Of a stretch of DNA of 41,707 bases, positions 20,215 to 41,234 are shown piece after piece. Origin of the DNA: Verrucomicrobiota bacterium (GTDB lineage: Bacteria > Verrucomicrobiota > Verrucomicrobiia > Limisphaerales > JADLHS01); assembly GCA_025457745.1 (NCBI GenBank), contig JALOTT010000013.1:1-41707 (forward strand), given 5' to 3'. A program made the position numbers and the translations under genes. Under the pieces are notes generated by a model. It had not been told where the DNA came from. It ran no database searches and saw nothing but the letters and a program-made list of their open reading frames with translations. Position 1 is the stretch's first letter. Every line of letters begins with the position of its first letter.

Positions 20215-20421
20215 GATTCCGTAGTCCCGTCAGGGACGACCGACAATAGCCCGCGGTTTCAACCTTGGGTTGCGGATGTAATGATGACCAAGCCCCACAG
20301 GGGCGAAAGAATCCGTTCGTTGACACAACAAGATTCTTCCGTCCCTCACGGGACTCGTTCCAGCTCCGCGCAAATACCCAGCGATAAATCGCTGGGCTGT
20401 TTTCAAGCGTCCTTGTGGGAC
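20215..20421. repeat. composite multi-hairpin repeat element (GTCCC-N4-GGGAC modules plus a CCCAGCGAT-AAA-TCGCTGGG hairpin)
   Basis: Hairpins at 20224-20237, 20341-20354, 20377-20396 and 20409-20421. Six-frame peptides of the type VVPSGTTDNSPRFQPWV / LGCFQASLWD are characteristic of a dispersed repeat, not of a gene. Confidence 0.55.
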
Positions 20422-21695
20422 TTGGATTCATGGTTTGATTTGATGCGCTCCAACAAATCCTCCGCCGGTTCGTTGGTGGGGTCTTGGGGGACGAGTTGGC
20501 CGGCGAAGGCGCGGGCGAGGAGGGACGGCGTGAGCTTCTCCACTTGCCCGCGCGCCTTGGCCAACCGCACCTCAAGCTGGTCGGCCAGCGCAAACAATCC
20601 CTCCACTCGCCGCACGATTTCCAGTTGCTCGGGGAGCGGAGGCACTGGAACAGGGATGGTGTTCATGTTTGCCTGATTCAACTTTGGCTGCGCTGTGCCC
20701 GACACATACGGCGCGAGATCAATCGAGTTGATGTAGGCGGCGACGTAGGCGTTTGGGAACGAGTGCTTGCACCTCAGAACATGGGCGTGGTTGTTGACCC
20801 AAATCCGACCCTTCGCGAGAAATGCGATGGGTGTCGAACGTGAGAGCAAGTTCGCGCCGTCCTCGCCAATCAGCACGAACTCACCTTCGTGTGTGAAGCC
20901 GTCAATGGAATCGATAACTCCTGACGCTCCGTAATATGGGAACGCACCCTTTCGTGTTTCACGCAGCTTCGATGAAATGGGAACACGTTTGCCATCGAGA
21001 TTCTCAACGTAATCGCCTAGCGCGCACCAAGCCCAGCCGGATGGCAAGTCATCGGCAGGCTTGGCGGCTGCGATGACTTCGCTTGCTGGCTGAACATTTG
21101 AACTGTCCTCCCGCCAATCGGCGGTAAGGCGGCCGGAGCAGGCGGCGGCGAGGACGGATTGGCGAAAGCGTTTGAGCAGGACGGGCATCTTCGCCAGTCG
21201 CTGCTGGCTGGCGTCCACTTTGCCCAACAGCGTCTCCAGCTTCGCCACAATCCGCCGCTGCTCGGCGAGCGGAGCGAGCGGGACTTCAAGATTCCAGAAA
21301 ACTTCTGGGTCAACGTGAGGGATGCCCGTGCCGCGAGTGTTGTTGTTGAGAGTTTGAAACTGGCTGGCGATAAAGTGACGCAGATAACTCGACTCCACTT
21401 GTCGCGCCGTCAGCGCCATGATGGTTGAGCCAATCGCTCCTGTGATACCACCACCAATCCAGCCGCTTCGCGCACCGTCCCAAACGACGAACAAATCGTC
21501 TTTGGCGGCGAGCCTCGATGATTTCACTTCCGCAAACTGCCGAACTGCCTTCTTTTCGATTGCGTGGATGTCGAGGTATGGAACGAATCCATCGGCTGGA
21601 CTGTCGCGCAGGACAGCGGGCTTCTTTCCTTTCTTCGCAGCGACGACTTCCTGCAATCGCGCAAAAGCCCACCTATTCGGAAGCTCGTCGCTCAT
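20403..21695 (-). CDS. hsdS: type I restriction-modification specificity subunit HsdS
   Basis: Two target-recognition halves, each followed by a conserved helical region (LPEQRRIVAKLETLL... and LPEQLEIVRRVEGLFALAD...). Start taken at the MSDELPNRW ATG (21695); the upstream part of the ORF is Arg-rich noise. Confidence 0.85.
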   Translation of the reverse strand: MSDELPNRWAFARLQEVVAAKKGKKPAVLRDSPADGFVPYLDIHAIEKKAVRQFAEVKSSRLAAKDDLFVVWDGARSGWIGGGITGAIGSTIMALTARQVESSYLRHFIASQFQTLNNNTRGTGIPHVDPEVFWNLEVPLAPLAEQRRIVAKLETLLGKVDASQQRLAKMPVLLKRFRQSVLAAACSGRLTADWREDSSNVQPASEVIAAAKPADDLPSGWAWCALGDYVENLDGKRVPISSKLRETRKGAFPYYGASGVIDSIDGFTHEGEFVLIGEDGANLLSRSTPIAFLAKGRIWVNNHAHVLRCKHSFPNAYVAAYINSIDLAPYVSGTAQPKLNQANMNTIPVPVPPLPEQLEIVRRVEGLFALADQLEVRLAKARGQVEKLTPSLLARAFAGQLVPQDPTNEPAEDLLERIKSNHESKSHKDA

Positions 21696-21934
21696 TTCTC
21701 CACGCCTCCGTATCCGCTTGGCCCGAAGCGGGCTGCGGCGTCGGCAAATTTCGCTTTGCATTTTATTTGGTGTTCCCGCATATTCTCGGCGGCGACCAGA
21801 GTGGGCCGGATTCACCCGACTCCGAGAAGATTTCCCTGGCCGCACCGATTTAAAGGTCCCGCCCCGGTGACAAGAACCCATTGGGTTCTCTCGCAAGAGT
21901 AGCCGGGGCGGTCATTTTTTCCGGTCTTCATTTT

Positions 21935-22663
21935 TCAGTCGGGAAATCCAGTGCCAGCCTGGAGCACATCCCATTCGCGGCGCACCGCCGCCTGCACCCG
22001 CCGGAAGGAGCGGTCATCGTTGCCGTTCCATTTCCGGTAAATCGCCCAGGTGCAATAATCGGCGATCTGCAAATCGAGGTTGGATTTCGAGGCGTGATGC
22101 AGCACGCGATAGCGCACCGAAGCCGGGAGCATGGCGGCCAGCGTCATCTTCACGCCTTTTTCCACCGCCGCCCGCTTGCGCTGGACCGGCAGACTATCCG
22201 TGAACACGATGACCTCGGCAAATTCAGCCAGTGGATAATGTTGGAGGATCTCCCGCAGCAGAGTGCCCAGCACTTTGGGGAAAAACTGATCTTCGTCGCG
22301 CAGTCTCGCTTCCACCTTGGTTTTTTCCACGATGATGGCGTCCACCGCCACCCCGGCCAGATGCTTCTCGATGATGTCGAAGACGCCGGTGCGCACCGCC
22401 TGGGCGTTCTCCGAGGCATGGAAATATTCCAGCGCCGTGCCGCGCTCCACCTGATCGTATTTGAATTCCGTCAATTCCTTGTAGGCGTGGAACGGCCGCT
22501 CCTTGGTGATGCCGCCCAGCACGAAATACTTCGTGCCGTGCTTGGAGAAATCCAGATTCCCCGCCTCGTCGAGAAAAATATAGAGAAACCGTCCCGCCGG
22601 AGGGATGAGGCTGGCAGCCGGCCTCCCGGACACATGGGGCTGAGGTGATTCTTGGCCGCTCAT
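21935..22663 (-). CDS. DUF3800-family protein
   Basis: N-terminal YIFLDEAGNLDF and C-terminal LQIADYCTWAI match the DUF3800 pattern as recalled. Its ATG overlaps the hsdM stop as ATGA. Confidence 0.65.
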   Translation of the reverse strand: MSGQESPQPHVSGRPAASLIPPAGRFLYIFLDEAGNLDFSKHGTKYFVLGGITKERPFHAYKELTEFKYDQVERGTALEYFHASENAQAVRTGVFDIIEKHLAGVAVDAIIVEKTKVEARLRDEDQFFPKVLGTLLREILQHYPLAEFAEVIVFTDSLPVQRKRAAVEKGVKMTLAAMLPASVRYRVLHHASKSNLDLQIADYCTWAIYRKWNGNDDRSFRRVQAAVRREWDVLQAGTGFPD

Positions 22664-24081
22664 TTCTCCACGCCCTCTTCCTTTTCCACCAACGCGACGA
22701 TTTCGCGGAGGTCGTCCACCACCGCCTCCAGCTCCGTGATGGCTTCGGCGGCGAGGTCCTGCGGTTCGGGCAATTCGTCGGCGTCTTCGAGCGAGTCGTC
22801 CTTGAGCCAGGTCACGTCGAGCTTGTAGCCGCGTTCCTTGATTTCGCTGATATGGAATTTGCGGAAACGGCCCGTCTCGCCGGTGTCGGTGCGCCTGCTC
22901 AGGCCGTTGGGGTCTTTGCCGTAAACTTTTTCAAACTCGGCGAAGTGTTGCGCGGTGAGCGGGCGGTCTTTCTTGGTGATGCCCGGCACGTTGGAGCGCG
23001 CGTCGAAAATCCAGACCGCGTCGGTGGGCCGGCCTTTCTGGAAGAAGATGACGTTCGCCTTCACCCCCTGGCTGTAGGGCGTAAACGTGCCGCGCGGCAG
23101 GCGCAGGACGGTGTGCAACGCGCAATCCTGCATGAGCAACTCGAAGACTTCGCCGGCCTTGCCCTCGAACAGGCAGTTGTCCGGCAGCACCATCGCGGCG
23201 CGTCCGCCGGGCTTGAGCGTGGTCATGACGTGCTGGACGAAGTTGAGCTGTTTGTTGCTGGTCTCGATGGTGAAGTCGTCGCGGTCGGGTGCTTGATTCG
23301 CGCCTTTCGTGCCGAAGGGCGGATTGGTGAGCACCACGTCGTAACGCTCGCCGCGGTCCGGCTCGTAAACGGTATCGCCGAGATAAATGTGCGGCTCGAC
23401 GCCGTGGAGGAACAGATTCATCAGCGCGAGCCGGCGCGGTCGCGGCACGAGATCCTGGCCGATGAAGGTCTGCGATTTGATGCGCCGGGCGTCCGCGCGA
23501 TCGAACACGCCGCCGGAGACTTCCTTCGACACGAGCCATTCATAACTGCACACGAGAAAGCCGCCCGTGCCGCACGCCGGGTCGCAGATGCGGAAGTCCG
23601 GTTTGCCGCGCGGGTCGGGCTTCATCACCGAGACGATGGCCTGGATGAGCGGTCGGGGCGTGAAGTATTGGCCCGCGCCTTTCTTGCCTTCGCTGGCGGC
23701 CTTTTCGAGCAGGCCCTCGAACGCCGCGCCCTTCACGTCCACGTCCATCGCGGACCAATCCTCCTCGTCAATCATGGCGATGACGCGCTTGAGGTTGACG
23801 GGATTGTTAAAGCGCGGCGTGGCCTGCGCAAAGATGTCGGCGAGCAGGCCCCCGGCTTCGCGGAGCTTGCGCAGAATGTCGGCGTAGTGGTCGGTCAACT
23901 GCGTGCCGGACTTGGCCTTGAGCGAGTCCCAATCGCAATCCTTCGGCACCTTCGCGTCGCGTTCATCGGCCATCTTGAGGAACAGCAGGTAGGTGAGTTG
24001 CTCGATGTAATCGCCATAATCCACGCCGTCGTGGCGCAGCGTGTGGCAGAAGCCCCAGAGTTTTTGGACGATGTCGGACAT
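22660..24081 (-). CDS. hsdM: type I R-M N6-adenine DNA methyltransferase subunit HsdM
   Basis: HsdM N-terminal domain (LWGFCHTLRHDGVDYGDYIEQLTYLLFLK), SAM motif DPACGTGGF and catalytic NPPFG. Confidence 0.92.
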   Translation of the reverse strand: MSDIVQKLWGFCHTLRHDGVDYGDYIEQLTYLLFLKMADERDAKVPKDCDWDSLKAKSGTQLTDHYADILRKLREAGGLLADIFAQATPRFNNPVNLKRVIAMIDEEDWSAMDVDVKGAAFEGLLEKAASEGKKGAGQYFTPRPLIQAIVSVMKPDPRGKPDFRICDPACGTGGFLVCSYEWLVSKEVSGGVFDRADARRIKSQTFIGQDLVPRPRRLALMNLFLHGVEPHIYLGDTVYEPDRGERYDVVLTNPPFGTKGANQAPDRDDFTIETSNKQLNFVQHVMTTLKPGGRAAMVLPDNCLFEGKAGEVFELLMQDCALHTVLRLPRGTFTPYSQGVKANVIFFQKGRPTDAVWIFDARSNVPGITKKDRPLTAQHFAEFEKVYGKDPNGLSRRTDTGETGRFRKFHISEIKERGYKLDVTWLKDDSLEDADELPEPQDLAAEAITELEAVVDDLREIVALVEKEEGVEK

Positions 24082-24147
24082 GTTAAGAGAAGGCGTCGAG
24101 CCCGTTCAACCCTGTGCGATACGCGCCTCGAAATCCCAACAATCTCA

Positions 24148-24837
24148 CTAATTTGTTGCTGTCGTCAGAGGTTGTGCGAGCAAATTGTTGGTGGGCGGCA
24201 GGGCTGTCGCCTCGTGCCCAGTTGCGGGCTTCGGTGCGGGCTGAACTAAAGGTTCGACCTTCAGTTCGCTTCCCGGAGTCTGTGGCCCAACCGGTGACTG
24301 ATGACCGCCATTCGGCGCACCAGTTGCTGCGTCAGATTTCCAAAACTTGGCGACTATGCCTGCGCATCCAAGAACCACTGCCAGCATCAATGTGATCGCC
24401 CACCGCTTAGCATCGCGAAATTCTTTGATCTGCGCGCCAGCACTGGTCTCCACTCTTTGGACATCCCTTCTAAGGCCGCCAAGCTCACCCTCTACATTCG
24501 CAAGCTTAGCGAGTTCGCCTTTCGCAGCATTGCTCACACCCTCAACCCTTTGAACGTCTTTCCTCAAATTGTCGAGTCCCTGTTCCACGCTCGCGAGTCT
24601 AGTAATGAGTTGTCCGTTTGATTCACTCGCCCGGAGCTTCAACTCACTATCCATCAGCTTCAGTTTGTCATCGAGTTGACCTCGCGTCACAAGTTCTCCG
24701 ACTTTCTGCGCCAGCGCGATGTCCGCTTGGTTAATCCCTTTGCTCTCGTGTTCGCTCTTTATGTTTAGGGAATTGGGCAACAATAGACCTGACTGACTTT
24801 TGGAGTAGTCGTTTGAATTGAAGTTCGCGTCGCCCAT
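24148..24837 (-). CDS. hypothetical coiled-coil protein with one C-proximal transmembrane helix and a Pro-rich tail
   Basis: Internal repeat LRKDVQRVEG / LRRDVQRVET, TM segment WAITLMLAVVLGCAGIVAKFW, SD-like GGGGGA 8 nt before the ATG. Visibly AT-richer than its flanks. Confidence 0.6.
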   Translation of the reverse strand: MGDANFNSNDYSKSQSGLLLPNSLNIKSEHESKGINQADIALAQKVGELVTRGQLDDKLKLMDSELKLRASESNGQLITRLASVEQGLDNLRKDVQRVEGVSNAAKGELAKLANVEGELGGLRRDVQRVETSAGAQIKEFRDAKRWAITLMLAVVLGCAGIVAKFWKSDAATGAPNGGHQSPVGPQTPGSELKVEPLVQPAPKPATGHEATALPPTNNLLAQPLTTATN

Positions 24838-24851
24838 AGCGATTCCCCCTG

Positions 24852-25268
24852 CTAGGATTGATAAGGCTTGAATCTGCGTTGGTCGTAGTGGAACACCACA
24901 AAATCGCCGTCATCCTCAATAAACCCAACGATCAGGTCCAGCGGTTCACGGAAGTAGGCTGATCCAGATTCGTCTGTCTGACCGAGAACGGGAACTCCCA
25001 ACACCTCGACCACAATTCCCGGCTCGCCATAACGAGGCTTCTTCTTGTTTTGTAGCCCTGGCTTCCACTCCACCAGCATGCCTTTCTCAAATGAGTGTCT
25101 CGTATCGAAGGAGGTCAAGAATTCCTTCAACTTGGTGGCGGTGACTTCAGCTGCCTCCTTTGACACCGGAACGGGGTCACCTTCGGCCTCGACGATTTTG
25201 CGGAGCAGCTCTTTCTTGAGCGGATCTCGGAGTGCTTTTGCCAACTCTAGTTTTTCTATTTCTGTCAT
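24852..25268 (-). CDS. hypothetical 138-aa protein (helical N-terminal half, beta-rich C-terminal half)
   Basis: Clean ORF with an AGGA SD. Its stop lies 14 nt before the next ORF's start. No family recognised. Confidence 0.6.
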   Translation of the reverse strand: MTEIEKLELAKALRDPLKKELLRKIVEAEGDPVPVSKEAAEVTATKLKEFLTSFDTRHSFEKGMLVEWKPGLQNKKKPRYGEPGIVVEVLGVPVLGQTDESGSAYFREPLDLIVGFIEDDGDFVVFHYDQRRFKPYQS

Positions 25269-25322
25269 AACGTAGTTCCTTTCACATTTTCACATTTCAG
25301 TTCAGAATCATTGCTCGTGAGG

Positions 25323-27938
25323 TTACAAGTGGCTCGTGTGCGAGGCAAGCAACCCCGCTTGCGGATTGCAGACCGCCTCGTTGAGTTCCGCGACCACTCG
25401 CGGCAAATCGAGGAACAACTTCCTCGCCTTGGCCTTTCCACCTCGCATCTCCAGCAGCGGCGTCAGATCGAAATCTTCCTCATCCATCGAAAGATTTTTC
25501 ACCAAATGCTCGCGGACGAGCGAGAGCCATTGCATCTGCTCCGGCGTCAGCTTGTGCCCACCGATGAATTTCTCCAGTGCCACATTCACTCGTTCCTCGG
25601 CGGTGAGCAGCGGTGATTGCGCGGTTGACGCGTGCTTGACGATGGAGATTACATCCGCCAGCGCTTTGAATCCTTTGGCGCGGTGGGCGCGCTGGAGTTT
25701 CTCCGGTTCAAACCCGTTTTGATGGAGCGTGCGCTTCAGCTCTTCCATCACGGCGGGCCGCCAGTCGCGCGGGTGTTGGAGCAAAACAGAAAGCGCGGTA
25801 ACTTTGTCGGCGTTGGCTTTCACGAACTCGGAGAAGGCGTCGAGATAATCCTCGGCGTTGTCGAACTGGCCGTAGCGTTCAAGTTTCTGCGACGTGACCA
25901 CGTCCTTGTCTTCGATGGTCGTGAGGAAGGTGCGTTTCGCGCGGGGATATTCCAGCAGCAGCTTCTGAAAGTCAGGATTGCGCAGCAGTTTCATCGTGCC
26001 GGCGAAGTCCTGCTTCAGCCGTTGCGGCAGTTCCTTCGCGAATCGGCCCATGTCGCCCTCGAGAATCCACGCCGAGAACTGGGTGCGGGCGTCGGCGTTC
26101 ATGTCCTTGTCAATCCGCAGGAGGCGCTTGGCTAGGATGCGCACGTGGTAATCGCGGTCCACGTTCTGCCAGATGTTTTCGATGACTTCCGGGAGCGTGA
26201 GCGGGGTTTTGCCCGGCGGTTCGAGGTCGAAGCTGGAGACGTTTCGGAAATACTGGATGAGCGTGCCGTCGAAGCAGTCGAACACGACGAACTTGGACTT
26301 GTTGATATCGGGGCAAAGGCGCGTGCCGCGTCCGAGCATCTGCTCCCACAGGATGCGCGACTTGACCGGGCGCAGGAACACGATGAATTCCAGCGCCGGG
26401 ATGTCCACGCCGGTCGAGAGCATGTCCACGGTGACGACGACCTTGGGATTGGGGCGGTTGCGGAATTCGCGGATGCGCTGGAGGGGGCGGTCCACGTTCG
26501 GGTTGCCGGTGATCTTCTGCACGAAGTCGTCGCCCTGCTTGAAAACGGAGCGGCAGGTTTTGACGAGTTGGTCCGCGTGCGAGGTGTGCGGGAGATCGTT
26601 GACCGCGAAGATGAGGATTTTCGGGAAGTGGCCCGTGGTGGCTTCGAGTTGATCCAGTGCTTTCTGGCCGGTGTCGGTGTCCACGCGCTCGACGGTTTCA
26701 CCTTCATTAAGGAAGACGCCGTTCATGCGTACGTCCGACTTGATGGCCACCGGCTCGTAGTCCACGAGGTAGCCGTCGAGGATTCCCTGCTCCACGGTGT
26801 AACGAAACACCGGCGCGCCAAAGACCGCGGTGGTATGCGCGGCAGGGGTGGCGGTGAGGCCAATCTTGATGGCATCGAAGTGATTGAGGGTGTTGCGCCA
26901 GACGCTCATCTCTTGCGCGGTATAGCCGCGATGGCATTCGTCCGCAATGATGATGTCGAATGCGTGGATGGGAATATCGAGTTTGTCGGCGTCGGCCTCG
27001 GCCTCCGTGTCGCCGCCGGACTGCGCGAAGCAGCCCTCGGCGCCGAACAGATTCCGCGCCATGCGCTGGATGGTGGAGACGTAAACGAAGGTGTGCGTTG
27101 ACTTCGGCGCGGTGAGATACTCGTTGGGCAGCACCTTGGGATCGAATGGATCGTCCTCGCCGAAGTCTTCGCGTTGGAATTTCTGGCTGTAAACCTCGTA
27201 TTCGTTCGCAAACTTGTTGCCTTGGGGTGTGTTGAAGGCGTTGAACTCCCGGACGGCTTGGGCCGCGAGCGCCTTCCGATCCACGAGAAAGAGGATGCGT
27301 TTGGCGAACTTGGATTCCAGCAGGCGATAGATCTGAGCGACGGTCAGGAAAGTTTTTCCGGTGCCGGTGGCCAGGGCGAGGAGGATTTCGCGACGACCGG
27401 CGATGATGGCTTGCTCAGTCGCGATGTTGCAGCGGCGTTGGTAATCCCGCAGGCGGGTGATGAGGTCGGGCGGCGTATCAAGCAGCCAGTCGTACGCCGG
27501 CTTGGGATTGAAGGCGAACATGGCTTCCAGCGCCGGCCCGGTGTGGAAATTGGCGAGCTGGCGCGAGACGGGTTTCTCCCCCCGCACATCGAGAAACCAG
27601 ATGATCTCGCCGTTGGTGGCAAACAGGAAGGGCACCCGGAAGCCATTCCAGTTGCCCGGACCGTTGAATGCGCCGGAGGAATACCGCTTGGCCTGCTCCA
27701 GCACGTTCTGCGGATTCACCGTTACCTTTTTGGCTTCGGTGATGCCGAGGAAGTTGCCGTTGACGAAGAGACCATAGTCAGCGGGGCCGTTCTCCGTGGG
27801 CAATTCTTCGACCGCAACGCAGTGGAGAGTGGATAAATCGAGTCCATCGTGGTAGCGGATGATTTGCCACGGCGGCGTGAGCGCACACAGCCGCCGATCA
27901 ATGCGGCTTTTTCGTGTTTGCCATTCTGTTTCGTGCAT
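25323..27938 (-). CDS. hsdR: type I restriction enzyme R subunit HsdR (EcoEI-like with C-terminal helical domain)
   Basis: N-terminal nuclease region (..PADYGLF..GITEAKK), helicase motif I ATGTGKT, motif II IIADECHRG, TATP, motif VI QMLGRGTRL, and an EcoEI_R_C-like tail. Confidence 0.92.
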   Translation of the reverse strand: MHETEWQTRKSRIDRRLCALTPPWQIIRYHDGLDLSTLHCVAVEELPTENGPADYGLFVNGNFLGITEAKKVTVNPQNVLEQAKRYSSGAFNGPGNWNGFRVPFLFATNGEIIWFLDVRGEKPVSRQLANFHTGPALEAMFAFNPKPAYDWLLDTPPDLITRLRDYQRRCNIATEQAIIAGRREILLALATGTGKTFLTVAQIYRLLESKFAKRILFLVDRKALAAQAVREFNAFNTPQGNKFANEYEVYSQKFQREDFGEDDPFDPKVLPNEYLTAPKSTHTFVYVSTIQRMARNLFGAEGCFAQSGGDTEAEADADKLDIPIHAFDIIIADECHRGYTAQEMSVWRNTLNHFDAIKIGLTATPAAHTTAVFGAPVFRYTVEQGILDGYLVDYEPVAIKSDVRMNGVFLNEGETVERVDTDTGQKALDQLEATTGHFPKILIFAVNDLPHTSHADQLVKTCRSVFKQGDDFVQKITGNPNVDRPLQRIREFRNRPNPKVVVTVDMLSTGVDIPALEFIVFLRPVKSRILWEQMLGRGTRLCPDINKSKFVVFDCFDGTLIQYFRNVSSFDLEPPGKTPLTLPEVIENIWQNVDRDYHVRILAKRLLRIDKDMNADARTQFSAWILEGDMGRFAKELPQRLKQDFAGTMKLLRNPDFQKLLLEYPRAKRTFLTTIEDKDVVTSQKLERYGQFDNAEDYLDAFSEFVKANADKVTALSVLLQHPRDWRPAVMEELKRTLHQNGFEPEKLQRAHRAKGFKALADVISIVKHASTAQSPLLTAEERVNVALEKFIGGHKLTPEQMQWLSLVREHLVKNLSMDEEDFDLTPLLEMRGGKAKARKLFLDLPRVVAELNEAVCNPQAGLLASHTSHL

Positions 27939-28004
27939 ACCCGCTTGAGTTCTTGCCGATGTTTTAAGGGAATCGGAGCGAAGTTCAAAGCGGATTCTGA
28001 AAAT

Positions 28005-28080
28005 TGGTGCCCCGGCTAGGGGTCGAACCTAGGACAAACAGATTAAGAGTCTGCTGCTCTACCAACTGAGCTACCGAGGC
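28005..28080 (-). tRNA. tRNA-Lys (anticodon CTT)
   Basis: Hand-folded 76-nt cloverleaf: acceptor GCCTCGG/CCGGGGC, D stem GCTC/GAGC, anticodon stem GCAGA/TCTGT, loop CTCTTAA, T arm CTAGG-TTCGACC-CCTAG, encoded CCA. Confidence 0.88.
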
Positions 28081-39753: not shown

Positions 39754-40326
39754 CTAAACGTCCTTCCCGCAGCAATGCTTAAACTTCTTACCGCTTCCAC
39801 ACGCACATTTATCATTGCGGGCTTGTTTCGGGGCCGAATGTATCGGTTGCGGTTTTACGAAATCAATGCGTTCGGTTGAAGGGCAACGAAACGAGAAGCA
39901 TGTTTTACCGTCTTTGTGGGTTACCGCAAAATCGCCTACGCCAATGATGTCCATCCCGATTAAAAGATGGGTATCTTGAGCCATATCGCCTTTTGTGACG
40001 CGCACATTAGAGCACCGAACCCCATTGGGAAGAATTATGTTAACAAAATACACCTCGGAATTTCTGCTGCCATTTCCGGTATGAACTATTGCCATTCCGA
40101 TTGGCTTTAGTCCGCAGGCATCCACAACCTTTTGCGAAATAACCGAATTGGTTGCGCCGGTATCCCAAATCGCATCGAATTGGACTTGTTGTGGGTGGGG
40201 AGAGGTCGAATTAGGATCAAACGCAGCCGACACATGGGCTGCCGTTTTCAAGACTGAAAGGCGACCGTCAGCCGATAATGTAAAACTCTGCGACCGAATT
40301 GTAGGCGGACTAGGCGAAGGCGACAC
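39754..40326 (-). CDS. retropepsin-like (clan AA) aspartic protease fused to a C-terminal SEC-C metal-binding motif
   Basis: Active-site motif AIWDTGATNSVIS, flap/dimerisation-like LLIGMDIIG, C-terminal CACGSGKKFKHCCG. GTG start overlaps the upstream ORF by 17 nt. AT-rich compared with its surroundings. Confidence 0.7.
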   Translation of the reverse strand: MSPSPSPPTIRSQSFTLSADGRLSVLKTAAHVSAAFDPNSTSPHPQQVQFDAIWDTGATNSVISQKVVDACGLKPIGMAIVHTGNGSRNSEVYFVNIILPNGVRCSNVRVTKGDMAQDTHLLIGMDIIGVGDFAVTHKDGKTCFSFRCPSTERIDFVKPQPIHSAPKQARNDKCACGSGKKFKHCCGKDV

Positions 40327-40567
40327 GGGAATGGTAGGTCTGCGTGTAGCCAGCGCTTCCGGGTTCGCATTTCTGGACTAAAAAAGTCCCAAGCCGGTGA
40401 CTCTTTACAGTTTCTTGGATTGCCTGGACTTCGGAATCGTATGAGCCAATGACTTTTTGGTCTTTGATCACAACATGCTTCCCACCAAATTTTTCTACCA
40501 ATTCGTTTTGGTGTTCCAGGTAATAATTAAATTCTGTTTCGAGCGGATTAGCCATAATCGTTTCCAT
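40310..40567 (-). CDS. small hypothetical protein (85 aa), DUF5678-like by eye; upstream partner of the protease
   Basis: FNYYLEHQNELVEKFGGKHVVIKDQKVIGSYDSEVQAIQ resembles small 'GKWVAI.dg.V' proteins. Same strand as the protease ORF and overlapping it. Confidence 0.5.
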   Translation of the reverse strand: METIMANPLETEFNYYLEHQNELVEKFGGKHVVIKDQKVIGSYDSEVQAIQETVKSHRLGTFLVQKCEPGSAGYTQTYHSRVAFA

Positions 40568-40702
40568 CCACGAAAAGAGTAGTGGAATAGCATGATTCAG
40601 TCAATACATCTGTTTATCTTGATGAATTGATATTGCAACTTTAATCAAGCAGGCCAACGAATTACTGCGTACGTAGAACGGGCCGGGTTTCCATCTCCAG
40701 CG

Positions 40703-40906
40703 CTACCGCTGAATCACGGCCACCCGAAAGCGGTCCAGCCACCCGGCGAGATCAGAATGACGATACCTGATTACCTTGCCGGTAATCCTCAGATGCGGCA
40801 CACCCCGCTTTCTTCGCCATAACCGCAACGTGCGGGGCGTAATTCCCAGGAATCTTGCCGCCTCGATTTCAGTCAGCAAAGTTTGACCGTCCAAGTAAGT
40901 ATTCAT
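40703..40906 (-). CDS. AlpA/excisionase-family helix-turn-helix DNA-binding protein
   Basis: 67 aa. LLTEIEAARFLGITPRTLRLWRRKRGVPHLRITGKVIRYRHSDLAGWLD matches the HTH_17/MerR-type excisionase pattern. The rest of the 110-aa ORF upstream of this ATG is Gly/Ser noise. Confidence 0.7.
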   Translation of the reverse strand: MNTYLDGQTLLTEIEAARFLGITPRTLRLWRRKRGVPHLRITGKVIRYRHSDLAGWLDRFRVAVIQR

Positions 40907-40967
40907 CCGTGTTTCCCCTTTCAGTTTTGTATTTTCTACTTTCTGCTTTCCTTCCCACCCTCCACCC

Positions 40968-41234
40968 TTGCGCCCGATGCAACCGTCGCCCCAGCCGTAC
41001 CCGCAGCCCCGGACGCTCGACGAACTGCTCGCCAACGCCGAGCACTACGCCGACTTCTGCATGCGCAACTCGGGCCGCGTCACGCCCGCGCTTTTCCTCA
41101 TCGGGCCGGACGGCCAGGGCATGGTCTGTCCCGAAAGCCTGGCGGACGACCGCGCCAAAGACGACTTCGCCAATAATGCGCGCCTCGTGTGCATCGCCGC
41201 GCGCGTCTGCCTTGGCAGGTGTTTGCCGAGTTGA
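40968..41234 (+). pseudogene. island-borne hypothetical gene, apparently 3'-truncated near 41195-41215
   Basis: TLDELLANAEHYADFCMRNSGRVTPALFLIGPDGQGMVCPESLADDRAKDDFANNARLVCIA looks protein-like. The last ~12 codons (RVCLGRCLPS) look like read-through into unrelated DNA. Confidence 0.4.

What the first reader, a model, noticed from the sequence alone, without database searches (positions are those of the whole stretch)
24148..25268. Two-gene AT-rich cassette of unknown function between hsdR and hsdM
The type I R-M operon is interrupted between hsdR and hsdM by two co-oriented ORFs. They are tightly linked: a 14-nt spacer with a GGGGGA Shine-Dalgarno, gaps of 54 and 66 nt to hsdR and hsdM, and no terminator seen. 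The first encodes a 138-aa soluble protein with a helical N-half and a beta-rich C-half. The second encodes a 229-aa protein with a coiled coil carrying an internal LR(K/R)DVQRVE(G/T) duplication, one TM helix and a Pro-rich tail. Neither matches a family I recognise, and the segment is visibly AT-richer than its flanks, which suggests separate acquisition. Accessory defence genes embedded in type I R-M operons have precedent (the PrrC anticodon nuclease in EcoprrI). A small soluble partner plus a membrane-anchored coiled-coil protein fits a sensor/effector abortive-infection layout. This is my top candidate for an undescribed system.
Basis: partly seen in the sequence, partly recalled or inferred. 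Interest (0 to 1): 0.72.

Follow-up and report, generated by a model that had tools for sequence, protein, structure and literature searches.

The report
Unknown gene pair inside restriction operon
Two real but uncharacterised genes, one for a small soluble protein and one for a membrane-anchored coiled-coil protein, form a swapped-in cassette between hsdR and hsdM, at a site where sister bacteria carry other accessory genes, so it is a fair but untested candidate anti-phage or toxin-like module.

Summary
On the minus strand the order is hsdR, A (138 aa), B (229 aa), hsdM, a DUF3800 gene, hsdS. The gaps are 54, 14 and 66 nt. GC3 is 0.56-0.60 in A and B against 0.79-0.85 in hsdR and hsdM.

Both genes are under purifying selection. 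Sister Verrucomicrobial loci with 84-87% identical HsdR lose homology at the hsdR stop and regain it 1 nt before the hsdM ATG. In that slot they carry an FRG protein, an HD-CE/HATPase protein or a DUF900 protein instead. A-B is therefore exchangeable cargo.

A has three helices and an SH3-like barrel. It belongs to a widespread family absent from Pfam and PADLOC (phrog_37886). Phages carry the bare barrel. In bacteria the usual downstream partner is a roughly 750-aa double-AAA ATPase, often with a divergent WYL regulator.

B is nearly an orphan: a cytoplasmic coiled coil, one TM helix and a disordered Pro-rich tail. Its few relatives with readable context follow an A gene.

Best reading, not proven: an embedded toxin-antitoxin-like or abortive-infection module. 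This class is already known (PrrC, TgvAB, guilt-by-embedding candidates), but these two protein families are new to it. Interest is moderate.

The parts
25323..27938 (-). hsdR, type I restriction subunit (871 aa)
   Evidence: Pfam ResIII, EcoEI_R_C and HSDR_N; PADLOC REase_I 7.7e-89. 84-87% identical to Verrucomicrobial HsdR proteins.
25323..25370 (-). Last 14 codons plus stop of hsdR (NPQAGLLASHTSHL), which belong to the cassette side of the breakpoint
   Evidence: Homology to L177, L179 and L181 ends at about 25372, where sister HsdR proteins stop. L016 shares the same tail.
25269..25322 (-). 54-nt hsdR-A spacer with an AAAGGAAC Shine-Dalgarno-like site
   Evidence: The core is conserved in L016.
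24852..25268 (-). Gene A, 138-aa soluble protein
   Evidence: ORF; 73 homologues; phrog_37886 at 1.5e-9; AF2 pLDDT 85.6.
25101..25268 (-). A residues 1-56: variable three-helix N-terminal region
   Evidence: AF2 helices 3-12, 16-28 and 37-55. Poorly conserved, and absent from the 91-aa phage forms.
24855..25100 (-). A residues 57-138: conserved SH3-like beta-barrel with invariant W68, F106-R-E-P-L110, D129 and R132
   Evidence: Alignment A1; AF2 strands; Foldseek; dN/dS 0.03.
24838..24851 (-). 14-nt A-B spacer with a GGGGGA Shine-Dalgarno site
   Evidence: Conserved in L016.
24148..24837 (-). Gene B, 229-aa bitopic membrane protein
   Evidence: ORF. Only 3 clear relatives among 1.84 billion representatives. 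dN/dS 0.28.
24526..24594 (-). B residues 82-104: first copy of the internal repeat (…LRKDVQRVEG…)
   Evidence: Self-alignment.
24433..24501 (-). B residues 113-135: second copy (…LRRDVQRVET…). It lies in a 31-aa insertion absent from relatives.
24343..24399 (-). B residues 147-165: single transmembrane helix, preceded by the basic stretch KEFRDAKRW
   Evidence: Kyte-Doolittle 2.21. AF2 continuous helix 52-170. The juxtamembrane and TM region is conserved in the L020 partner.
24151..24327 (-). B residues 171-229: disordered Pro-rich tail, predicted to be extracytoplasmic
   Evidence: pLDDT below 50; 11 Pro in 63 residues. Topology is inferred from the positive-inside rule.
24082..24147 (-). 66-nt B-hsdM spacer, the right end of the cassette
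   Evidence: Homology to sister loci resumes at 24082.
22660..24081 (-). hsdM, type I methyltransferase
   Evidence: N6_Mtase 5e-64; PADLOC MTase_I 8e-173.
21935..22663 (-). DUF3800 gene, a second cargo cassette, in the hsdM/hsdS slot
   Evidence: PF12686 at 1.4e-11; PADLOC DUF3800_VII at 1.4e-8. Absent from sister loci.
22657..22674 (-). 18-nt junction copy 1 (GGCGTGGAGAAATGAGCG): hsdM stop overlapping the DUF3800 ATG
21689..21706 (-). 18-nt junction copy 2, at the likely true hsdS start (ATG at 21698)
20403..21698 (-). hsdS specificity subunit; probable start at 21698
   Evidence: Methylase_S; PADLOC Specificity_I. Homology with the hsdS start of L177.
28005..28080 (-). tRNA-Lys(CTT), 66 nt upstream of hsdR
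   Evidence: ARAGORN.

Best explanation
A-B is a horizontally acquired two-gene cargo cassette of about 1.29 kb (window about 25370-24082). It occupies the exchangeable hsdR|hsdM slot of a Verrucomicrobial type I R-M locus. It is most likely co-transcribed with hsdR, and B is most likely translationally coupled to A.

I propose that it is a toxin-antitoxin-like or abortive-infection conflict module that works independently of the R-M enzyme.

- B is the effector. It is a tail-anchored inner-membrane protein. Its roughly 95-residue cytoplasmic coiled coil runs straight into the TM helix. Coil-driven oligomerisation would perturb or permeabilise the membrane, as in proteins built like XhlA or holins.
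- A is the cytosolic partner. It either holds B inactive or senses the trigger.
- A's variable N-terminal helices would give partner specificity. Its highly conserved SH3-like barrel would bind the common ligand or trigger.
- Phage-encoded bare barrels would then act as decoys or neutralisers.

Shown: both genes are real; the cassette boundaries and the slot variability; the A-B linkage in a second lineage; the fold of A; the architecture of B.

Inferred: co-transcription, physical A-B contact, B's toxicity or membrane action, the trigger, and any anti-phage effect.
For: - Cassette and slot. Homology with three sister loci (HsdR 84-87% identical) stops at about 25372 and resumes at 24082. In that slot they carry FRG, HD-CE+HATPase_c or DUF900. 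The hsdM|hsdS slot is also variable: DUF3800 here, HipA_2+DUF3037 in L179. The DUF3800 cassette is flanked by an exact 18-nt duplicated junction.
- Foreign origin. GC3 is 0.56-0.60 against 0.79-0.85.
- Function retained. dN/dS is 0.03 for A and 0.28 for B, with dS above 1, against L016. L016 keeps the same hsdR tail, both Shine-Dalgarno sites and the gene order.
- Linkage. B relatives with readable context follow an A gene: L016 directly, and the P0075 contig has a cut 113-aa gene ending 17 nt upstream of the B homologue. A-plus-coiled-coil/TM pairs also occur away from R-M: L015, L020, L017 and L121, with gaps of -4 to +17 nt.
- Coupling. The A-B spacer is 14 nt with a GGGGGA site, and no terminator is predicted.
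- B architecture. One helix spans 52-170 including the TM segment; the tail is disordered. There is weak similarity to XhlA (E = 0.035) and to holin phrog_689 (E = 0.004, covering coil plus TM).
- A as a constant module with variable partners. These are a double-AAA ATPase, with a WYL regulator upstream in 20 of the 80 genome loci (38 of 144 non-redundant loci), PD-T4-10-like pairs (4 loci) and small membrane proteins (7 loci). Phage forms are the barrel alone.
- Precedent. Genes embedded in type I R-M systems are often defence genes: PrrC, TgvAB and the 145 PDCs of Payne et al..
Against: - Neither protein carries a recognisable effector, sensor, nuclease, NTPase or pore domain. Both are absent from PADLOC v2, which includes the embedded-candidate models.
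- The XhlA and holin matches are far below threshold and could reflect coiled-coil plus TM composition alone.
- A sample of 150 proteins from within three genes of A (AAA and WYL partners excluded) is mostly housekeeping or without any hit. The L020 pair sits among dnaE, a peroxiredoxin, ydjM and uvrD.
- The B model has low confidence (pLDDT 62) and rests on 4 sequences.
- hsdR-A-B embedding is seen in only two, related, loci.
- No experiment or expression data exist.
- Co-transcription rests on the absence of consensus signals, and the scanner does not cover this phylum's promoters.
Confidence: 0.4

Rival explanations
1. R-M guardian or regulator, PrrC-like. A and/or B physically associate with the HsdR/HsdM/HsdS complex. 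They act when the enzyme is inhibited by phage anti-restriction proteins, or they tether or regulate the restriction complex at the membrane.
For: The position is similar to that of prrC, which is embedded in the EcoprrI type I locus. The hsdR reading frame runs 14 codons into the cassette, and this tail is conserved in L016. The hsdR-A-B arrangement has been maintained across dS above 1.
Against: Sister loci with near-identical HsdR and HsdM carry unrelated cargo in the same slot, so no dedicated interface is required. A-plus-B-like pairs occur with no R-M genes nearby (L015, L020). There is no similarity to PrrC or RloC.
Confidence: 0.1
2. Addiction or stress module with no anti-phage role. 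A is an antitoxin and B a small membrane toxin. Their only effect is to stabilise the island or to respond to stress such as DNA damage.
For: The gene order and tight coupling are typical of type II toxin-antitoxin pairs. The A family is multi-copy in some genomes: 5 loci each in Thiorhodococcus mannitoliphagus and Thiocystis minor. The A family is often under a WYL regulator, a class linked to DNA-damage control as well as to defence (own knowledge). The L020 pair lies among dnaE, ydjM and uvrD.
Against: The slot's other occupants are conflict-system domains rather than classical toxin-antitoxin genes. Phage-borne A homologues argue for a role in phage-host interplay. The boundary between toxin-antitoxin and abortive infection is blurred, so this rival overlaps the best explanation.
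Confidence: 0.17
3. Phage- or mobile-element-derived passenger, or a superinfection-exclusion or anti-defence gene pair, that landed in a permissive intergenic site and gives no defence through membrane killing. For example, B anchors A at the membrane to block DNA entry, or A inhibits a host system.
For: The A family is in PHROGs and in phage genomes, next to replication and accessory genes. One such phage locus also carries Tad2-like and NAD-salvage genes and a methylase. The cassette is AT-rich. B's bitopic shape resembles small phage membrane proteins.
Against: No other phage or mobility genes lie within the R-M locus (20403-28080). B was not found in viral contigs or plasmids. Both genes are under purifying selection in a chromosomal R-M context in two lineages.
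Confidence: 0.15
4. Housekeeping adaptor and scaffold. A is a substrate adaptor or regulator for AAA+ unfoldases, its commonest neighbour. B is a membrane scaffold. Their presence in the R-M slot is incidental, or it modulates HsdR turnover (restriction alleviation).
For: 38 of 144 non-redundant A loci have a double-AAA ATPase immediately downstream. SH3-like barrels are common adaptor folds (own knowledge). Most A neighbourhoods are housekeeping.
Against: No AAA partner is encoded in the R-M locus (20403-28080). The distribution is patchy and multi-copy, phage homologues exist and regulation is by WYL proteins; all of these are atypical of core housekeeping genes. The cassette is clearly horizontally exchanged.
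Confidence: 0.1

Closest known systems
PrrC anticodon nuclease embedded in the EcoprrI type I R-M locus
   Same: An accessory gene nested among hsd genes on the same strand, with abortive-infection logic layered on restriction.
   Different: PrrC is a single protein with an ATPase domain and an anticodon-nuclease domain (own knowledge). It is held latent by the R-M enzyme. A and B share no similarity with it. They form a two-gene soluble-plus-membrane pair. A-B-like pairs also occur without any R-M system.
TgvAB, the two-gene GmrSD-like type IV system embedded in the Vibrio cholerae VPI-2 type I R-M cluster (PMC11411939)
   Same: Two co-oriented genes of initially unknown function interrupt a type I R-M cluster and act as an independent defence.
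   Different: TgvAB are GmrSD-family modification-dependent restriction proteins. A and B have no nuclease or NTPase domain.
Phage defence candidates found by guilt-by-embedding (Payne et al. 2024, bioRxiv 10.1101/2024.01.29.577857)
   Same: The same inference class: uncharacterised genes embedded in type I R-M, BREX, DISARM or Hma systems. More than half of such embedded genes lack an assigned function.
   Different: A and B hit none of the PDC or HEC models in PADLOC v2.0.0. They come from an uncultured Verrucomicrobial lineage outside the RefSeq set used in that study.
Lambda RexA/RexB-type two-gene abortive infection (cytosolic sensor plus membrane effector)
   Same: A proposed working analogy only: a small soluble protein encoded just upstream of a membrane protein that would compromise the membrane (own knowledge of RexAB; architecture).
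   Different: RexB is polytopic (own knowledge), whereas B has one TM helix and a long coiled coil. No sequence similarity was found to any PADLOC model. The mechanism is untested here.
XhlA-like and holin-like phage membrane proteins (PF10779, phrog_689)
   Same: An N-terminal cytoplasmic coiled coil followed by a C-terminal TM helix. Weak profile hits cover the coil and the TM segment.
   Different: The score is far below the Pfam cut-off (14.7 against 34.7 bits). B is about twice as long as these profiles (67 and 91 positions), has a Pro-rich tail and a conserved N-terminal hairpin motif, and has no lysis-gene neighbours.
Promiscuous antitoxin domains paired with many toxin types (PanA/PanT; own knowledge)
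   Same: One conserved small protein family (A) sits next to many unrelated partners, including small membrane proteins, and has phage-encoded copies.
   Different: There is no DUF4065 or other Pfam match. Neutralisation has not been tested. The commonest partner is a large AAA+ ATPase, which is not a typical toxin.

Membership tests
Defence-system-embedded cassette in type I R-M (guilt-by-embedding class) | Genes nested between the genes of a complete type I R-M system, all on one strand | tested here: met
   The order hsdR-A-B-hsdM-DUF3800-hsdS is all on the minus strand, and all three hsd genes were recognised.
Defence-system-embedded cassette in type I R-M (guilt-by-embedding class) | The embedded genes are neither mobility-associated nor of known non-defence function | tested here: met
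   No Pfam, NCBIfam or PADLOC family was found. The only match is a PHROG of unknown function. The mobileOG and eggNOG filters used by Payne et al. were not available here.
Defence-system-embedded cassette in type I R-M (guilt-by-embedding class) | The cargo is exchangeable: related host systems carry other cargo, or none, at the same site | tested here: met
   L177/L178 carry FRG, L179/L180 carry HD-CE+HATPase_c and L181 carries DUF900. The breakpoints lie at the hsdR stop and the hsdM start.
Defence-system-embedded cassette in type I R-M (guilt-by-embedding class) | Demonstrated anti-phage activity | not testable with these tools
   This needs cloning and phage challenge.
Catalogued PADLOC candidates (PDC/HEC) or any known defence protein | HMM match to a PADLOC-DB v2.0.0 model | tested here: not met
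   No family was found for A or for B, even at E up to 1.
PrrC/RloC | N-terminal ATPase domain plus a C-terminal anticodon-nuclease domain in one roughly 400-aa protein (own knowledge) | tested here: not met
   There is no ATPase or nuclease domain, no PADLOC hit of any kind, and the sizes are 138 and 229 aa.
XhlA (PF10779) / holin phrog_689 | Profile match above the curated threshold | tested here: not met
   PF10779 scores 14.7 bits against a cut-off of 34.7 (E = 0.035). phrog_689 gives E = 0.004.
XhlA (PF10779) / holin phrog_689 | Architecture: cytoplasmic coiled coil followed by a C-terminal TM helix | tested here: met
   AF2 helix 52-170, with the hydrophobic segment at 147-165.
phrog_37886 (A) | Full-length profile match | tested here: met
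   E = 1.5e-9; residues 3-134 align to profile positions 7-133 of 140. The phage homologue Bcep22 gp30 was also found by structure and by tblastn.
SH3-like beta-barrel fold (A, C-terminal domain) | Small five-strand barrel with structural matches to SH3/KOW-like domains | tested here: inconclusive
   The model is confident. The PDB matches are weak (best E = 8e-3): the nitrile hydratase beta chain, YorP (2heq) and ribosomal proteins, labelled SH3/KOW-like from own knowledge.
Type II toxin-antitoxin pair | Two small, tightly coupled genes, the upstream one neutralising the downstream toxin | tested here: inconclusive
   Coupling and gene order fit. Toxicity and neutralisation cannot be tested here. 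No known toxin or antitoxin domain was found.
RexAB-like abortive infection | Polytopic membrane channel protein plus a cytosolic activator that senses a phage cue | tested here: not met
   B has a single TM helix. No PADLOC hit. Sensing cannot be tested.

The most novel reading that the evidence does not exclude
The SH3-like A barrel is a previously unrecognised, widely distributed phage-sensing or phage-mimicked module. It is wired to interchangeable outputs: the membrane coiled-coil protein B, WYL-regulated double-AAA ATPases and PD-T4-10-like pairs. Phages carry the bare barrel as a decoy that switches these systems off. On this reading A-B would be the minimal membrane-effector version of a new multi-effector defence superfamily.
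Probability: 0.15. Interest if true: 0.75.

Novelty: new variant of a known kind. Interest (0 to 1): 0.45.

Why it matters
If the cassette is functional, it adds a new two-gene system, built from two protein families absent from Pfam and PADLOC, to the set of defences nested in restriction-modification loci.

It also shows that, in a poorly studied phylum (Verrucomicrobia), both internal junctions of a type I R-M locus act as cargo slots. These slots could be mined systematically.

Separately, the A family is a lead in its own right. Its barrel is highly conserved, it occurs both in phages and in bacteria, and its partners are modular (AAA+ ATPases under WYL control, PD-T4-10-like pairs, small membrane proteins). 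It could connect several orphan operons.

Tried and rejected
- Family searches. Pfam, NCBIfam and PADLOC gave nothing for A or B. Scanning all 39 A-family members against Pfam found no recurring family. PDB sequence searches with the A and B profiles gave only noise.
- Foldseek of A against the PDB gave only generic SH3/KOW-like or nitrile hydratase beta matches at E of 8e-3 or worse. No function can be transferred from these.
- B searches. The word-index search found only B itself. The exhaustive phmmer search found 3 true relatives plus 2 coiled-coil/TM look-alikes at E = 7e-4, which I treat as compositional. B gave no match in plasmids or viral contigs.
- A fold search for B was not run. 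The model is a single low-confidence helix, so any matches would be meaningless.
- The L017 partner of A has the same architecture as B but no detectable homology. I count it as an analogue only.
- I looked for an att-like repeat of the tRNA-Lys 3' end that would delimit an island. None was found.
- I looked for direct or inverted repeats flanking the A-B cassette. There are none. The 14-nt repeat at 24087 and 25831 is not at the breakpoints and is probably chance.
- There is no Rfam element in or around the cassette.
- The plus-strand ORFs overlapping the region (24114-24395, 24301-24621, 25045-25275) were not searched separately. I do not treat them as genes, because the conservation pattern fits the minus-strand frames.
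- The idea that A-family loci sit mainly in defence islands was tested and not borne out. A sample of 150 nearby proteins (AAA and WYL partners excluded) gave mostly housekeeping families or no hit.
Full report
**1. The observation**

The minus strand carries hsdR (25323-27938), ORF A (24852-25268, 138 aa), ORF B (24148-24837, 229 aa), hsdM (22660-24081), a DUF3800 gene (21935-22663) and hsdS (ORF 20403-21896; probable start at 21698). The spacers are 54, 14 and 66 nt. The 14-nt spacer is CAGGGGGAATCGCT.

No terminator-like or sigma-70-like site is predicted on the minus strand between 20000 and 28500. There is no Rfam match in 23800-25600.

The segment is AT-richer than its flanks. GC is 0.51 for A and 0.535 for B, against 0.60 for hsdR and 0.63 for hsdM. 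GC3 is 0.60 and 0.56 against 0.79 and 0.85.

**2. Both ORFs are real genes**

A has 73 homologues in the large protein collection. B is nearly an orphan. The word-index search found only B itself. An exhaustive phmmer scan of 1.84 billion representatives found three true relatives, P0075-P0077, at 47-57% identity.

One of these lies on contig L016 (the same contig as L097). That contig has the C-terminal part of hsdR, then A, then B, in the same order, at 73% nucleotide identity over window 26009-24542. It contains frameshifts.

Against L016, dN/dS is 0.03 for the A C-terminal domain, 0.28 for B and 0.27 for the hsdR C-terminus, with dS above 1. The Shine-Dalgarno sites and start codons of A and B are conserved in L016. 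The overlapping plus-strand ORFs were not searched separately, and I do not count them as genes because the conservation pattern fits the minus-strand frames.

**3. What A is**

The AlphaFold2 model, built on a 39-sequence alignment, has pLDDT 85.6. It shows three N-terminal helices (residues 3-55) and a five-strand barrel (65-135).

The barrel is the conserved part of the family. W68, F106-R-E-P-L110, D129 and R132 are invariant. The helical region is variable, and it is missing from the 91-93-aa phage forms.

Database results:
- Pfam, NCBIfam and PADLOC give nothing for A, and no Pfam family recurs across the 39 members.
- A matches phrog_37886 (function unknown) over its full length at E = 1.5e-9.
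- Foldseek against the PDB gives only weak matches to SH3/KOW-like barrels (my own label for these folds), with a best E of 8e-3: the nitrile hydratase beta chain, B. subtilis protein YorP (2heq) and ribosomal proteins.
- Foldseek against the viral structure library gives uncharacterised phage proteins: Burkholderia phage Bcep22 gp30 (E = 8.5e-7) and a protein of Klebsiella phage Pylas.
- tblastn confirms the homologues in Bcep22 and DC1, where the gene sits after the replication genes.

**4. What B is**

B has one strongly hydrophobic segment at residues 147-165, preceded by the basic stretch KEFRDAKRW.

The AF2 model has low confidence (pLDDT 62, from 4 sequences). It shows:
- a short N-terminal hairpin over the conserved motif YSKSxSGLLLPxSxNIK;
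- one continuous helix from residue 52 to 170, which includes the TM segment;
- a disordered tail over 171-229, with 11 Pro in 63 residues.

The LR[KR]DVQRVE duplication is real: two 23-residue copies at 82-104 and 113-135. It lies in a 31-residue insertion that the relatives lack, so it is recent.

There is no signal peptide-like N-terminus, and basic residues precede the TM helix. I therefore infer an N-in, tail-anchored topology with the Pro-rich tail outside the cytoplasm.

The only profile similarities are sub-threshold. XhlA (PF10779) gives E = 0.035 and 14.7 bits against a cut-off of 34.7. Holin phrog_689 gives E = 0.004 and covers the coil plus the TM segment. These families share the architecture, but membership is not established.

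**5. The key contextual result: a cargo slot**

The closest HsdR relatives are 84-87% identical. Those that carry names are labelled Verrucomicrobia, Verrucomicrobiales or Limisphaerales. They have the same hsdR-to-hsdM-to-hsdS order but different genes between hsdR and hsdM:
- an FRG-domain protein in L177/L178;
- an HD-CE plus HATPase_c protein in L179/L180;
- a DUF900 protein in L181.

Nucleotide homology with all three runs through hsdR to window position about 25372, where the sister HsdR proteins end. It is absent over 25371-24083. It resumes at 24082, one base before the hsdM ATG, and continues to the hsdM stop.

In the window and in L016, hsdR reads on for 14 extra codons (NPQAGLLASHTSHL). 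These codons travel with the cassette.

Over 26009-25372 the window is about 90% identical to L177 but only 73% identical to L016. Beyond 25372 only L016 matches. I read this as cassette exchange by recombination at the conserved gene ends.

The hsdM|hsdS junction behaves in the same way. It holds DUF3800 here and HipA_2 plus DUF3037 in L179/L180. The 968-bp DUF3800 cassette is flanked by an exact 18-nt direct repeat, GGCGTGGAGAAATGAGCG. This is the hsdM-stop/next-gene-start junction, present once at the DUF3800 ATG and again at the hsdS ATG.

**6. The pair outside R-M loci**

A homologues followed within -4 to +17 nt by a co-oriented coiled-coil or TM protein occur in four further contexts:
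- L015: the partner is cut by the contig end but shares the LDDKLR coil motif.
- L020 (Candidatus Nitricoxidireducens): a 155-aa partner. hhalign gives 84% probability over the juxtamembrane and TM region.
- L017/L100: the same architecture, but no detectable homology to B.
- L121.

A different partner of about 152 aa, with two hydrophobic segments, follows A in L046, L115 and L133. None of these loci has hsd genes. The L020 pair sits among dnaE, a peroxiredoxin gene, ydjM and uvrD. The module is therefore portable and does not need the R-M enzyme.

**7. The wider A family**

Scans of genomes and metagenomes returned 160 loci, and 12 more came from viral contigs.

- Of 144 non-redundant loci, 38 have a roughly 725-780-aa protein with two AAA domains immediately downstream. 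7 have a small membrane protein. The rest are heterogeneous.
- A divergent WYL/WCX regulator lies upstream in 20 of the 80 genome loci. An annotated example is on Thiodictyon plasmid pTs417.
- In 4 loci A abuts PD-T4-10_A/B-like genes.
- Some genomes hold several copies.
- A sample of 150 proteins encoded within three genes of A (AAA and WYL partners excluded) gave mostly housekeeping Pfam families or none. Only scattered PADLOC hits appeared: GmrSD/HEC-06, PD-T4-10 and PIN.
- Phage copies lie in early or replication regions. One lies near Tad2-like, NAD-salvage and methylase genes.

**8. Interpretation**

The following points are firmly shown:
- A-B is a foreign, selectively maintained two-gene cassette.
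- It sits in an exchangeable slot of a type I R-M locus.
- A is a soluble protein with an SH3-like barrel, from a broad uncharacterised family with phage members.
- B is a lineage-restricted, tail-anchored coiled-coil membrane protein.

The literature supports treating such embedded genes as defence candidates:
- PrrC lies within the EcoprrI locus.
- TgvAB lies within the V. cholerae type I cluster.
- In the guilt-by-embedding study, more than half of the embedded genes had no assigned function, and even a single embedded instance was judged worth following up.
- A and B match none of the PADLOC v2 models, which include that study's candidates.

I therefore favour, at confidence 0.4, a toxin-antitoxin-like or abortive-infection module. 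B would be a membrane-acting effector. A would be its cytosolic regulator or sensor. The variable N-terminal helices of A would match it to its partner, and the conserved barrel would bind the common cue.

Contact between A and B, B's toxicity, the trigger and any phage phenotype are all inferred. The rivals are an R-M guardian, a pure addiction or stress module, a phage-derived exclusion or anti-defence passenger, and an AAA+ adaptor or scaffold. They are scored in their own section of this report.

**9. Novelty and score**

The category is already known: accessory conflict genes embedded in type I R-M loci. The two protein families, the soluble-barrel-plus-coiled-coil-anchor layout and the two-slot behaviour of this Verrucomicrobial R-M family are not catalogued. 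I rate the finding a new variant of a known kind, with interest 0.45.

The most novel reading not excluded is that the A barrel is a general sensing module wired to interchangeable effectors and mimicked by phages. I give this a probability of about 0.15.

Noticed in passing
window 21689-21706 and 22657-22674; DUF3800 gene 21935-22663: A second cargo cassette (a DUF3800 gene; PADLOC DUF3800_VII) sits between hsdM and hsdS. It is flanked by an exact 18-nt direct repeat that duplicates the hsdM-stop/next-gene-ATG junction (GGCGTGGAGAAATGAGCG). DUF3800 and hsdS therefore both start with ATGAGCG. Sister locus L179 has HipA_2 plus DUF3037 at the same junction.
   Followed up: partly
window about 26640-26650 (hsdR residues 432/433): The window's hsdR has a clean in-frame 35-aa deletion (DERQFDAGAVERDITAPDSNRKIIEEVAKYAYEHE) relative to P0084. 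About 35 codons are also missing against L177, L179 and L181 in the nucleotide alignments. The deletion lies just before the KILIFA strand of the second helicase lobe. The restriction subunit may be impaired, or this may be an assembly artefact.
   Followed up: partly
window 28005-28080: tRNA-Lys(CTT) lies 66 nt upstream of hsdR on the same strand, which looks like an island inserted at a tRNA gene. No integrase-like ORF was recognised in the flanks that were annotated, and no repeat of the tRNA 3' end occurs anywhere in the window. Sister R-M loci sit at other genomic sites.
   Followed up: partly
L003-L006, L021, L022, L024, L060, L065, L183 and others: A recurrent, uncharacterised operon: a divergent WYL/WCX regulator, then an A-family gene, then a 725-780-aa double-AAA ATPase with a conserved N-terminal W(R/K)xDF…RRAARYALQ motif. 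It occurs in Chromatiaceae, Competibacteraceae, Zoogloea, Thauera and Comamonadaceae, sometimes in several copies per genome. PADLOC matches only the generic AAA domain (IetA/TRIP13-like).
   Followed up: partly
L036 8445-9600; L058 7021-7806; L089 6593-7853; L093 6731-7853: In four loci an A-family gene directly abuts PD-T4-10_A and/or PD-T4-10_B-like genes on the same strand (gaps of 6-38 nt in three loci; 123 nt in L036, where the pair lies downstream of A). The B-like hits cover only the first 140 or so of 353 profile positions.
   Followed up: partly
L181 2-6656 and 11257-11641: Upstream of the sister hsdR lies a GASH, DO-GTPase1, DO-GTPase2 and Fic cluster. Downstream of the DUF900 cargo, a 77-nt fragment of the hsdM 5' end is duplicated before the full hsdM start. 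This looks like a scar of recombination at the slot boundary.
   Followed up: no
L177 14620-14818 and 15841-16029 (both match window 20442-20644): The sister locus carries a second copy of the hsdS C-terminal conserved region downstream of hsdS (a 67-aa ORF). This may be a remnant of target-recognition-domain shuffling.
   Followed up: no
window 39754-41000: A second AT-rich patch (GC 0.49). It encodes a 190-aa protein with a retropepsin-like aspartyl protease domain and a C-terminal SEC-C motif. Next to it is a 248-aa ORF with no Pfam match.
   Followed up: partly
L129 about 2084-2730: Two A-family genes in tandem. The second is a 105-aa copy that starts 3 nt after the first.
   Followed up: no
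L001 8492-9043; L026 2906-3590: In two Planctomycete MAGs the A gene is followed by, or preceded in the same frame by, a soluble domain of about 180 aa. By eye this resembles YbjN-like chaperone or sensor domains. It was not tested with any profile.
   Followed up: no
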